From Naegleria gruberi (Eukaryota), in assembly GCA_000004985.1 (NCBI GenBank), contig GG739174.1: a stretch of DNA of 4,775 nucleotides; one strand, given 5' to 3'. The position numbers were made by a program, and so were the translations under genes. Under the pieces are notes generated by a model. It was not told the origin of the DNA, did not search any database, and saw only the letters and a program-made list of their open reading frames with translations. Position 1 is the first letter of the stretch. Each line of letters starts with the position of its first letter. Of this stretch, positions 1 to 1,049 are shown piece after piece.

Positions 1-128
1 AATGAATTTCATGGTGAAAATAATTATTTAACTTNTTTATTTAAATCATAATTTACAATTTATGATACAACAATATTTTAATCATAATATTGAATTAATT
101 TTAAATTTAAATTTTATTAATCAAAATA

Positions 129-1049
129 TTGAATTTAATATTAAAAATATTAAATTATTCAAATATTATTAATTTTAAAAATAAATTTATTGATAATTTT
201 AATAATAATAATTTAAATCAATTGAATAATAATTTAAATAATAATATAAATCAATTAAATAATTTAAATAATAATATAAATAATAATATAAATAATAATA
301 ATAGTAATATAATTTCAAATAATGATAATAGTATAAATATAGATAAATATATAAAACAAAGATATAAATTATTTTCCAAATATGACAATGGTATAAAAAT
401 AGATACAACAAGTTGGTATGAAGTAACACCTGAAAATATTGCAATTTATATTGCAAATAAAATAAATTTAATTTCTAAAAATATAATATTAATAGATGGA
501 TTTACAGGATGTGGTGGAAATATGATACAATTTTTATTACAACCAAATATAGAATTAGTAATTGGATGTGATATTTCTAAAATTAAATTAGATTATACTA
601 TAAATAATATTTCTATATATGGATGTAATAAAAATAAAATGAAATTAGTAGAAGGTGATTATATGTATCATTTACAAAATAATACTTTTAATAATATTAT
701 AAATGAATTTAAAAATAATAATCCAAATAAGGAATATACTATAATTACATTTTTAGCACCACCATATGGTACATTTAATTATTTAAATTGTATTTATAAT
801 TTAAAATTTGATTTATTAATTAATAATAATCAACATAATGGAATTGATATTTATAAATTTACAAGAAAATATTTTTGTAAAAATATTATTTATTTATTAC
901 CTAAAAATGTTAATATTAATCAAGTTAGTTATCAATTTAATCAAAATGATGAAGAAAATGAAATGGATTTTGAATTTATTTATATGGATGAAAAATATTT
1001 AAAATTAATTTTAATGTATTCAAATGAATGTTTAAATTTATTTAAATAA
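129..1049 (+). CDS. TGS1-family RNA cap guanine-N2 methyltransferase (trimethylguanosine synthase-like) with an N-terminal Asn-rich low-complexity tract. The 5' end is unresolved: the ORF-track 'M' at 129 is a TTG, and the frame is open back to a TAA at 108-110 with no in-frame ATG before the catalytic domain.
   Basis: The translation carries the hallmark TGS1 catalytic-domain motifs in the right order: 'RYKLFSKYDNGIKIDTTSWYEVTPENIAIYIA' (compare TGS1 [32 protein letters not shown]), the SAM-binding motif I 'LIDGFTGCGGNMIQF' (compare VVDAFCGVGGNxIQFA), the m7G-binding 'FLAPPYG' (compare FLSPPWGG) and 'YLLPKNVNINQV' (compare YFLPRNADIDQV). Stop codon TAA lies at 1047-1049. The comparison is from memory of the family, not a database search. 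Confidence 0.72.
   Translation: MNLILKILNYSNIINFKNKFIDNFNNNNLNQLNNNLNNNINQLNNLNNNINNNINNNNSNIISNNDNSINIDKYIKQRYKLFSKYDNGIKIDTTSWYEVTPENIAIYIANKINLISKNIILIDGFTGCGGNMIQFLLQPNIELVIGCDISKIKLDYTINNISIYGCNKNKMKLVEGDYMYHLQNNTFNNIINEFKNNNPNKEYTIITFLAPPYGTFNYLNCIYNLKFDLLINNNQHNGIDIYKFTRKYFCKNIIYLLPKNVNINQVSYQFNQNDEENEMDFEFIYMDEKYLKLILMYSNECLNLFK
199..333 (+). repeat. AAT-rich (Asn-codon) low-complexity coding repeat with interspersed TTA/CAA/ATA codons; a poly-Asn tract of the kind typical of dictyostelid proteins
   Basis: Direct reading gives ...NNNNLNQLNNNLNNNINQLNNLNNNINNNINNNNSNIISNNDNS... encoded almost entirely by AAT repeats. The reverse strand reads as poly-Tyr, which explains the spurious 199-456 minus-strand ORF. 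Confidence 0.9.

What the first reader, a model, noticed from the sequence alone, without database searches (positions are those of the whole stretch)
1..362. The TGS1-like methyltransferase gene has no usable start codon in the window; its Asn-rich 'N-terminus' may actually be an intron
The 129 start in the ORF track is a TTG. The frame is open from the TAA at 108-110, and its first in-frame ATG is deep inside the catalytic motif I (GGNM). The dinucleotide AG is completely absent from positions 1-302, so no splice acceptor can exist there. Either upstream exons lie outside the window and an intron ends at or after 304, which would make the whole poly-Asn tract (111-302) intronic. Or there is a mini first exon: 'a ATG AAT TTC ATG g|gtgaaa' (2-14), with a 329-nt AT-rich intron and acceptor 'aaatatAG|' at 341-342. 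That splice would be exactly in phase and would give MNFM-D-KYIKQRYKLFSKYDNGIKID…, starting directly at the conserved TGS1 domain.
Basis: partly seen in the sequence, partly recalled or inferred. Interest (0 to 1): 0.5.

Follow-up and report, generated by a model that had tools for sequence, protein, structure and literature searches.

The report
Scaffold-truncated Naegleria TGS1-like methyltransferase gene
The missing start codon has an ordinary cause: the window is a whole small Naegleria gruberi scaffold that begins inside an unannotated cap-methyltransferase gene, two probable one-base sequencing errors near the scaffold end break the reading frame, and the Asn-rich stretch is a translated linker, not an intron.

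Summary
The intron interpretation does not hold.

- **Source.** The window is an entire 4775-nt scaffold of Naegleria gruberi NEG-M.
- **Orthologues.** N. fowleri XP_044557493.1, Willaertia magna KAL9643317.1 and a metagenome Naegleria-like contig carry a conserved N-terminal domain, a variable linker and the TGS1 domain. In the two orthologues read at the DNA level these lie in one uninterrupted ORF.
- **Frame path.** The window encodes that N-terminal domain collinearly. It runs in frame 1 (1-34), frame 2 (36-169) and frame 3 (171-1046).
- **First shift.** It must lie within 32-48, which contains the only single ambiguous base of the scaffold, N35. Deleting N35 gives ENNYLTFYLNHNLQF, against W. 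magna ENNILTFHLNKNYQY.
- **Second shift.** It maps to 161-173.
- **Missing 5' end.** About 60-100 N-terminal codons lie beyond the scaffold end.
- **Poly-Asn tract.** It sits where the orthologues have a variable linker. It is an open frame (2 of 20,000 shuffles) and its tandem repeats have periods that are multiples of 3.
- **Mini-exon.** The model rests on a miscounted G. A true GT donor gives MNFMINI*.

Verdict: an ordinary truncated gene with assembly errors, of low interest.

The parts
1..34 (+). Frame-1 coding segment, NEFHGENNYLT(F). It is an internal piece of the heterolobosean-specific N-terminal domain. The gene continues upstream of the scaffold end.
   Evidence: It aligns to N. fowleri HHGDDHYLV and W. 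magna NENNILT in the frameshift-aware alignment and in alignment A3. Frame 1 has no stop in 1-48.
35..35 (+). Ambiguous base N, most likely a spurious inserted base call that shifts frame 1 to frame 2.
   Evidence: By stop positions the shift must lie within 32-48, and N35 is the only single N in the scaffold. Deleting it gives ...ENNYLTFYLNHNLQF, against W. magna ENNILTFHLNKNYQY.
36..169 (+). Frame-2 coding segment, (F)YLNHNLQFMIQQYFNHNIELILNLNFINQNIEFNIKNIKLFKYY. It is the conserved core of the N-terminal domain.
   Evidence: tblastn to P0001 gives E 4e-8 and to P0002 E 3e-7, and tblastx also finds it. None of 2000 shuffles reaches the observed score against N. fowleri or L002. A given frame stays open in 109 of 20,000 shuffles.
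161..173 (+). Second +1 frame break (AAATATTATTAAT), from frame 2 to frame 3. Probably a one-base insertion error in an A/T run.
   Evidence: Frame 2 stops at 170-172 and frame 3 is open from 111. IKLF (frame 2) and FKNKFI (frame 3) flank the break. They align to the orthologues' IKVY...YKIKHL and VKLY...FKHNEL.
171..332 (+). Translated low-complexity linker, 57% Asn. It includes the poly-Asn tract with in-frame tandem repeats at 204-303.
   Evidence: Frame 3 has no stop here, while the other two frames have 15 and 27 stops over 111-341. A given frame stays open in 2 of 20,000 shuffles. TRF periods are 12, 21, 24, 30 and 33. It sits at the orthologues' variable linker. The equivalent P0001 segment, 79-100, has pLDDT below 50.
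333..1049 (+). TGS1-type cap guanine-N2 methyltransferase domain with its helical N-terminal extension, ending at the TAA stop at 1047-1049. Motif I DGFTGCGGNM is at 495-524, the acidic motif IGCDIS at 561-578, and motif IV APPY at 756-767.
   Evidence: Pfam PF09445 scores 64.3 bits against a cut-off of 22. Human TGS1 3GDH matches at E 2.6e-28. The best fold match for the orthologue model is 3EGI.

Best explanation
Positions 1-1049 are the 3' three-quarters of a single-exon gene of Naegleria gruberi that the deposited annotation did not call. It encodes a heterolobosean-type TGS1-like RNA cap guanine-N2 methyltransferase.

The protein has three parts: an N-terminal domain of unknown function, a variable low-complexity linker (the poly-Asn tract here), and the AdoMet-dependent methyltransferase domain. 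By homology, that domain would methylate N2 of m7G caps on snRNA and snoRNA.

The scaffold ends inside the N-terminal domain, so the start codon and about 60-100 codons are simply not in the assembly piece. Within the first 175 nt the true reading frame is broken twice, each time by one extra base: N35, and one base within 161-173. These are most likely base-calling or assembly errors at the low-coverage, about 93% A+T scaffold end.

No intron is involved, and the TTG at 129 is not a start.

Shown: the homology, the collinearity, the frame path and the truncation. Inferred: that the two frame breaks are errors rather than mutations, and the enzymatic activity.
For: - **Origin.** The other two genes of the window are EFC35519.1 and EFC35520.1 of N. 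gruberi, on a 4775-nt contig, which is the window length.
- **Orthologues.** They are continuous ORFs with the same architecture. L003 is N. fowleri.
- **Restricted clade.** Only P0001, P0002 and P0004 (W. magna) share the N-terminal domain. The next hit drops from E 1.8e-75 to 5e-39.
- **Frame-2 homology.**
- **Three-frame path.** It was found by frameshift-aware alignment.
- **Reconstruction.** The reconstructed protein aligns collinearly with all three orthologues across both junctions.
- **N35.** It lies inside the 17-nt interval where the first shift must occur.
- **Position of the breaks.** Both lie within 175 nt of the scaffold end, and none occurs in the following 875 nt.
- **Selection.** The window keeps 108 of 115 residues that are invariant in the three orthologues, including 11 of 12 in the frame-1 and frame-2 part. 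All 7 changes are conservative. This indicates purifying selection rather than decay.
- **Linker.** It is open and repeats in frame.
Against: - No read-level or transcript data for N. gruberi were available, so real frameshift mutations in strain NEG-M cannot be excluded.
- The second shift has no ambiguous base to mark it.
- The frame-1 segment is only 11 codons long, so on its own it is weak. It is convincing only because it continues across N35 into the W. magna-like ENNYLTFYLN.
- The gene has 12.8% G+C and GC3 of 3.8%, in a genome reported at 35% G+C. This is unexplained and could point to an unusual or misassembled locus.
Confidence: 0.8

Rival explanations
1. The two +1 frame breaks are real mutations. 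The N. gruberi NEG-M copy would then be a recently inactivated pseudogene, or would express only a truncated product.
For: - Two disruptions are present in the deposited sequence.
- The gene was not annotated on the scaffold: no protein from it was found.
- Its composition is extreme.
- From general knowledge, Tgs1 is not essential in yeast.
Against: - 94% of the clade-invariant residues are retained, with only conservative changes, including in the segments upstream of the breaks.
- About 290 codons at 87% A+T remain free of stops.
- One break coincides with an N.
- Both breaks sit at the scaffold end.
Confidence: 0.12
2. Either an intron ends at or after 304, so the poly-Asn tract is intronic and the exons lie upstream. 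Or a mini first exon (2-13/14) is joined to 343 by a 329-nt intron.
For: - No ATG is in frame.
- GT is present at 14 and AG at 341.
- The region is very A+T-rich, like an intron.
Against: - The supposed intron contains sequence homologous to orthologue coding sequence in frames 1 and 2.
- The two orthologue ORFs read at the DNA level are uninterrupted.
- The acceptor would split the conserved INIDKY motif.
- The GT donor is out of phase, giving MNFMINI*.
- The tract is an open frame with repeat periods that are multiples of 3.
- The two introns on this scaffold are about 45 and about 80 nt, and the median Naegleria intron is about 80 bp.
Confidence: 0.02
3. Programmed +1 ribosomal frameshifting. 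The second site is Y-Y-TAA followed by a +1 continuation, reminiscent of Euplotes-type shifts at stop codons.
For: Both shifts are +1. The second occurs at a frame-2 TAA at 170-172.
Against: - The orthologues have no shift at either site.
- The first site coincides with an N.
- To my knowledge no such mechanism is known in Naegleria.
- In 93% A+T sequence a stop is expected soon after any frame error.
Confidence: 0.01
4. The A+T-saturated segment 1-1075 does not belong next to the 31% G+C block. It would be a chimeric contig, or DNA from a different A+T-rich heterolobosean. The gene structure would be as described above, but the locus would be an artefact.
For: - G+C steps sharply at about 1076 and about 4100.
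- GC3 is 3.8% and 3.6% in the flanking genes, against 27.8% in the central RING gene.
- Relatives have GC3 of 19-39%.
Against: - Both steps lie inside contiguous sequence, not at the N gap at 2362-2839.
- Both coincide with the 3' ends of convergent genes.
- Pairwise identities in the methyltransferase domain are star-like. Window to N. fowleri is 67%, window to L002 is 63%, and L002 to N. fowleri is 64%. This is as expected for the N. gruberi orthologue.
Confidence: 0.1

Closest known systems
Naegleria fowleri XP_044557493.1 / KAF0972779.1 (FDP41_009028; named 'Trimethylguanosine synthase' in UniRef A0A6A5BIC2), 520 aa
   Same: It has the same three-part architecture: N-terminal domain with QF.IQQYF..SIEL, variable linker, and PF09445 domain with the APPY motif. 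The methyltransferase domain is 67% identical. It is a single ORF.
   Different: Its linker is Ser/Thr/His-rich rather than poly-Asn. It has additional inserts inside the methyltransferase domain. Its G+C is normal, with GC3 of 19%. It is complete, with an ATG.
Willaertia magna KAL9643317.1 (447 aa) and the metagenome orthologue P0001 (true ORF L002:1849-3114, 421 aa)
   Same: The same N-terminal domain and APPY motif. The W. magna linker is also Asn-rich. The W. magna sequence ENNILTFHLNKNYQY spans the first frame junction of the window.
   Different: Identity in the methyltransferase domain is 52-63%. Both are complete and unbroken ORFs.
Human TGS1 methyltransferase domain (PDB 3GDH, 3EGI), yeast Tgs1, Giardia Tgs2 and mimivirus Tgs
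   Same: - A class I AdoMet methyltransferase fold with a helical N-terminal extension (KYxxQRYxLFSxFDxGIxLD).
- A motif I Asp and a motif II Asp.
- The LPRN/LPKN loop.

The match to 3GDH is E 2.6e-28, and the top fold match is 3EGI.
   Different: The catalytic motif is APPY, not SPPW (human) or DPPW (Giardia, mimivirus; PMC2709555). The heterolobosean-specific N-terminal domain has no Pfam match and is absent from other TGS1 proteins.

Membership tests
TGS1 / RNA cap guanine-N2 methyltransferase (Pfam PF09445 Methyltransf_15) | A domain match above the curated threshold. | tested here: met
   64.3 bits against a cut-off of 22, E 1.3e-17, covering profile positions 3-164 of 165. N. fowleri scores 65.4 bits.
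TGS1 / RNA cap guanine-N2 methyltransferase (Pfam PF09445 Methyltransf_15) | AdoMet-binding motif I (xxDxFxGxGGN) and the acidic residue of motif II. These are human D696 and D719. | tested here: met
   LIDGFTGCGGNMIQF (D at 495-497) aligns to VVDAFCGVGGNTIQF. IGCDIS aligns to IAIDID in 3GDH. Residue roles come from PMC2709555.
TGS1 / RNA cap guanine-N2 methyltransferase (Pfam PF09445 Methyltransf_15) | The catalytic and cap-stacking motif (S/D)PPW. The Trp stacks on m7G: human W766A has <1% activity and S763A has 18%. | tested here: not met
   The window has APPY at 756-767, and so do all three heterolobosean orthologues. An aromatic residue is kept (Tyr), so stacking remains plausible, but the canonical motif is absent. 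The reference is PMC2709555.
TGS1 / RNA cap guanine-N2 methyltransferase (Pfam PF09445 Methyltransf_15) | A helical N-terminal extension that forms part of the cap pocket. This is human Leu634-Ser671. | tested here: met
   IDKYIKQRYKLFSKYDNGIKIDTTSWYEVTPE aligns to human [32 protein letters not shown].
TGS1 / RNA cap guanine-N2 methyltransferase (Pfam PF09445 Methyltransf_15) | Conversion of m7G caps to m2,7G or m2,2,7G. | not testable with these tools
   This needs an enzyme assay with m7GTP or m7GpppA and AdoMet.
Heterolobosean TGS1-like subfamily (N. fowleri FDP41_009028 type) | A shared N-terminal domain (..HHG..YL..LN..QF.IQQYF..SIEL.L..IKLY) upstream of a variable linker, in the same gene. 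| tested here: met
   Present in window frames 1 and 2, collinear with the orthologues. The part upstream of HHG is missing because the scaffold ends there.
   GT at 14 with AG at 341 gives MNFMINI*. The interior is homologous to orthologue coding sequence. No GT lies in 16-303 and no AG in 1-302.

The most novel reading that the evidence does not exclude
The deposited bases are correct and the locus is real. Under this reading, N. gruberi, a genome of 35% G+C, would hold a compartment of functional genes driven to about 4% GC3 and 57% Asn linkers. That compartment would abut normal-composition DNA with sharp boundaries. Its TGS1-like enzyme, with APPY in place of SPPW and a lineage-specific N-terminal domain, would be a heterolobosean cap or RNA methyltransferase of altered specificity. 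It would be expressed despite two +1 frame breaks, by frameshifting or as split products.
Probability: 0.05. Interest if true: 0.55.

Novelty: new member of a known kind. Interest (0 to 1): 0.15.

Why it matters
The main value is for annotation.
- It shows that N. gruberi has the heterolobosean TGS1-like gene, which the deposited gene set lacks on this scaffold.
- It explains the apparent lack of a start codon.
- It warns that ORF-based or splice-based repairs at A+T-rich scaffold ends can invent introns.

Two side observations might merit a short follow-up by Naegleria specialists: the APPY catalytic motif conserved across Heterolobosea, and the extreme local A+T saturation. Neither changes the picture of cap hypermethylation.

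Tried and rejected
- **Exact-product look-ups.** I searched for the 306-aa TTG ORF and for the RING protein or RING ORF in public assemblies. Nothing was on record, so no independent copy of the locus could be obtained.
- **Contigs of the ASC-like relatives.** The contigs of P0166, P0167 and P0169 (one ENA sample) are not syntenic with the window.
- **Second N. gruberi copy.** The PCNA neighbour of P0001 shares no 90%-identity cluster with any named protein, so L001 and L002 are not demonstrably N. gruberi.
- **Mobile element.** No terminal direct or inverted repeats bound the 31% G+C block.
- **RNA genes.** Rfam and tRNA scans of the window found nothing.
- **Central ORFs.** ORFs in 1077-1794 have no Pfam match.
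- **Early hypotheses dropped.**
  - A ciliate genetic code would not yield a start either, and the neighbouring genes use the standard code with GT-AG introns.
  - A dictyostelid, Plasmodium or giant-virus origin was ruled out once the N. gruberi identity was shown.
- **Structure model.** The model of P0001 is only moderate (mean pLDDT 64) and uninformative for the N-terminal domain.

Full report
**Observation**

The window was read in full.
- The listed ORF start at 129 is TTG.
- Frame 3 is open from the TAA at 108-110 to the TAA at 1047-1049.
- The first frame-3 ATG is at 522, inside GGNM.
- AG is absent from 1-302, with the first at 303. GT occurs at 14 and then not until 304.
- G+C is 6.6% in 1-302 and 12.8% in 1-1075.

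The AG-free run is rarer than base composition predicts: 29 of 20,000 mononucleotide shuffles. There are only nine G in the stretch, and each follows T or G, so the cause is codon context rather than a splicing signal.

One detail is wrong. The sequence at 11-20 is ATGGTGAAAA, not ATGGGTGAAA.
- With a real GT donor at 14-15, the proposed mini-exon splices out of phase and gives MNFMINI*.
- The in-phase product needs an intron that begins with TG.

**What the gene is**

Frame 3 (111-1046) matches Pfam PF09445, RNA cap guanine-N2 methyltransferase, at 64.3 bits against a cut-off of 22. It matches human TGS1 (PDB 3GDH) at E 2.6e-28.

A word-indexed protein search gave two close relatives, P0001 (58% identity) and P0002 (50%). 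An exhaustive profile search of 1.84 billion cluster representatives found only one further protein sharing their N-terminal region, P0004. Scores then fell from E 1.8e-75 to 5e-39 for ordinary TGS1 proteins.

Cluster look-ups name the relatives:
- P0002 clusters with Naegleria fowleri XP_044557493.1.
- P0004 is Willaertia magna KAL9643317.1.

The contig carrying P0002 is N. fowleri, because its neighbouring gene is FDP41_009029.

**Where the window comes from**

The two other genes of the window are 100% identical to N. gruberi proteins. They are EFC35519.1 (a RING protein, 284 aa, exactly the two-exon model I derived) and EFC35520.1 (a partial ASC-like protein). Both are recorded on a contig of 4775 nt, which is the length of the window.

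So the window is an entire small scaffold of the N. gruberi NEG-M assembly. That assembly has 784 scaffolds and 35% G+C (PMC6125883). 'Outside the window' therefore means 'not in this piece of the assembly'. No protein from the methyltransferase gene was found in the collection.

**The key result**

The two orthologue genes read at the DNA level are single uninterrupted ORFs. In L002 the ORF actually starts 80 codons upstream of the called start, at 1849-3114, giving 421 aa.

All three orthologues have an N-terminal domain, a variable linker and the methyltransferase domain.

The N-terminal domain is present in the window, but not in frame 3.
- tblastn aligns window 41-169 in frame 2 (LNHNLQFMIQQYFNHNIELILNL...IKLFKYY) to P0001 residues 35-77 at E 4e-8, and window 32-160 to P0002 residues 91-140 at E 3e-7. 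tblastx finds the same region.
- None of 2000 shuffles of 36-172 reaches the observed score against N. fowleri or L002.
- A frameshift-aware alignment places the path as frame 1 from about 10, a +1 shift at about 32, frame 2, a second +1 shift, then frame 3.

*First shift.* Stop positions confine it to 32-48: frame 2 has a TAA at 29-31 and frame 1 has a TAA at 49-51. That 17-nt interval contains N35, the only single ambiguous base of the scaffold. Deleting it yields NEFHGENNYLTFYLNHNLQFMIQQYF. The stretch ENNYLTFYLNHNLQF matches W. magna ENNILTFHLNKNYQY across the junction.

*Second shift.* It lies between IKLF (frame 2, ending at 160) and FKNKFI (frame 3, starting at 174). That places it within 161-173, AAATATTATTAAT.

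The reconstructed 348-aa product aligns collinearly with all three orthologues (alignment A3).

**Is it a decaying pseudogene?**

The three orthologues agree at 115 alignment columns. The window keeps 108 of them, including 11 of 12 in the frame-1 and frame-2 part. All seven changes are conservative: S>N, F>Y, L>I, V>L, D>E, A>T and L>F.

About 290 codons of 87% A+T sequence contain no stop, while the other two frames have 28 and 45 stops over 342-1046.

Both breaks lie within 175 nt of the scaffold end, and one coincides with an N. I therefore read both as base-calling or assembly indels (confidence about 0.8). Real recent frameshift mutations are the main rival (about 0.12). Only reads or cDNA can decide between them.

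**The poly-Asn tract**

The tract (171-332, 57% Asn) occupies the position of the orthologues' variable linker. That linker is Ser/Thr/His-rich in N. fowleri and Asn-rich in W. magna.
- Frame 3 is open through it. A given frame stays open in only 2 of 20,000 shuffles of 173-341.
- Its tandem repeats have periods of 12, 21, 24, 30 and 33, all multiples of 3.
- In a moderate AlphaFold model of P0001 (mean pLDDT 64), the corresponding segment 79-100 has pLDDT below 50. That model's best PDB fold match is human TGS1 3EGI.
- No canonical intron can start in 16-303 or end in 1-302.
- The proposed acceptor at 341-342 would split the conserved INIDKY motif at 333-350.
- The two introns on this scaffold are about 45 and about 80 nt. 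The median Naegleria intron is about 80 bp.

The intron reading is rejected.

**How much is missing**

In the orthologues, the QF.IQQYF motif lies about 80-120 residues from the N-terminus. In the window it starts at nt 56, which is 18 codons in. So roughly 60-100 codons and the ATG lie beyond the scaffold end.

**Comparison with known families**

The domain has these TGS1 features, aligned to 3GDH:
- the helical N-terminal extension;
- the motif I Asp;
- the motif II Asp;
- the LP(R/K)N loop.

The catalytic motif is APPY in all four heterolobosean sequences. Human TGS1 has 763-SPPW-766 and Giardia and mimivirus have DPPW. In the human enzyme Trp766 stacks on m7G: W766A leaves <1% activity and S763A leaves 18% (PMC2709555).

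The gene is a member of the Pfam family by score, but one canonical feature is not met. Its activity is inferred, not shown. The N-terminal domain has no Pfam match.

**Verdict**

- The gene is truncated by the scaffold end.
- Two probable single-base errors break the frame.
- The low-complexity linker is translated.
- The gene is an unannotated N. gruberi member of a known family, so novelty and interest are low.

What remains unexplained is the composition mosaic of the scaffold. GC3 is 3.8% and 3.6% in the two flanking genes, against 27.8% in the central RING gene and 19-39% in relatives.

Noticed in passing
window 1-1075, 1076-4100 and 4101-4775: The scaffold has a sharp composition mosaic.
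- The methyltransferase gene has 12.8% G+C and GC3 of 3.8%.
- The ASC-like gene has GC3 of 3.6% with normal GC1 and GC2 (0.40 and 0.36).
- The central 3 kb has about 31% G+C, and its RING gene has GC3 of 27.8%.
- Relatives elsewhere have GC3 of 19-39%, and the N. gruberi genome is reported at 35% G+C.

The steps are not at the N gap, and no flanking repeats were found. The cause is unexplained.
   Followed up: partly
window 756-767 (APPY); also L002, P0152 and P0004: All four heterolobosean TGS1-like proteins have APPY where human TGS1 has SPPW and Giardia and mimivirus have DPPW. Both the cap-stacking Trp and the Ser are replaced.
   Followed up: partly
window 2981-3880, minus strand: The RING-finger protein EFC35519.1 has a signal or transmembrane segment, a coiled coil and a C3HC4 RING. 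It has a 45-nt GT-AG intron. Its only hit in the 5.8-billion-protein search was itself, so it looks like an orphan gene.
   Followed up: partly
window 1076-2361: This 1.3 kb of 31-32% G+C sequence has no long ORF, no Pfam match, no Rfam or tRNA match, and no similarity to the orthologous loci. Its nature is unknown.
   Followed up: partly
window 4164-4767, minus strand; L004-L007: The partial ASC-like (amiloride-sensitive channel, PF00858) gene has an intron of about 80 nt. It has several paralogue-like relatives at 64-81% identity on separate contigs of a single ENA metagenome (ERZ929261). This suggests a gene family in a Naegleria-like organism.
   Followed up: partly
L002:1849-3114: The metagenome gene call for P0001 (341 aa, start at 2089) is too short. 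The ORF extends 80 codons upstream, and the extra part is homologous to the N. fowleri and W. magna N-termini (PYPITK and ITxSL motifs). It overlaps a called 92-aa ORF on the opposite strand, which is probably spurious.
   Followed up: yes
window 2362-2839: A run of 478 N, the scaffolding gap, separates the two contigs of the scaffold. ORFs listed across it are meaningless.
   Followed up: no
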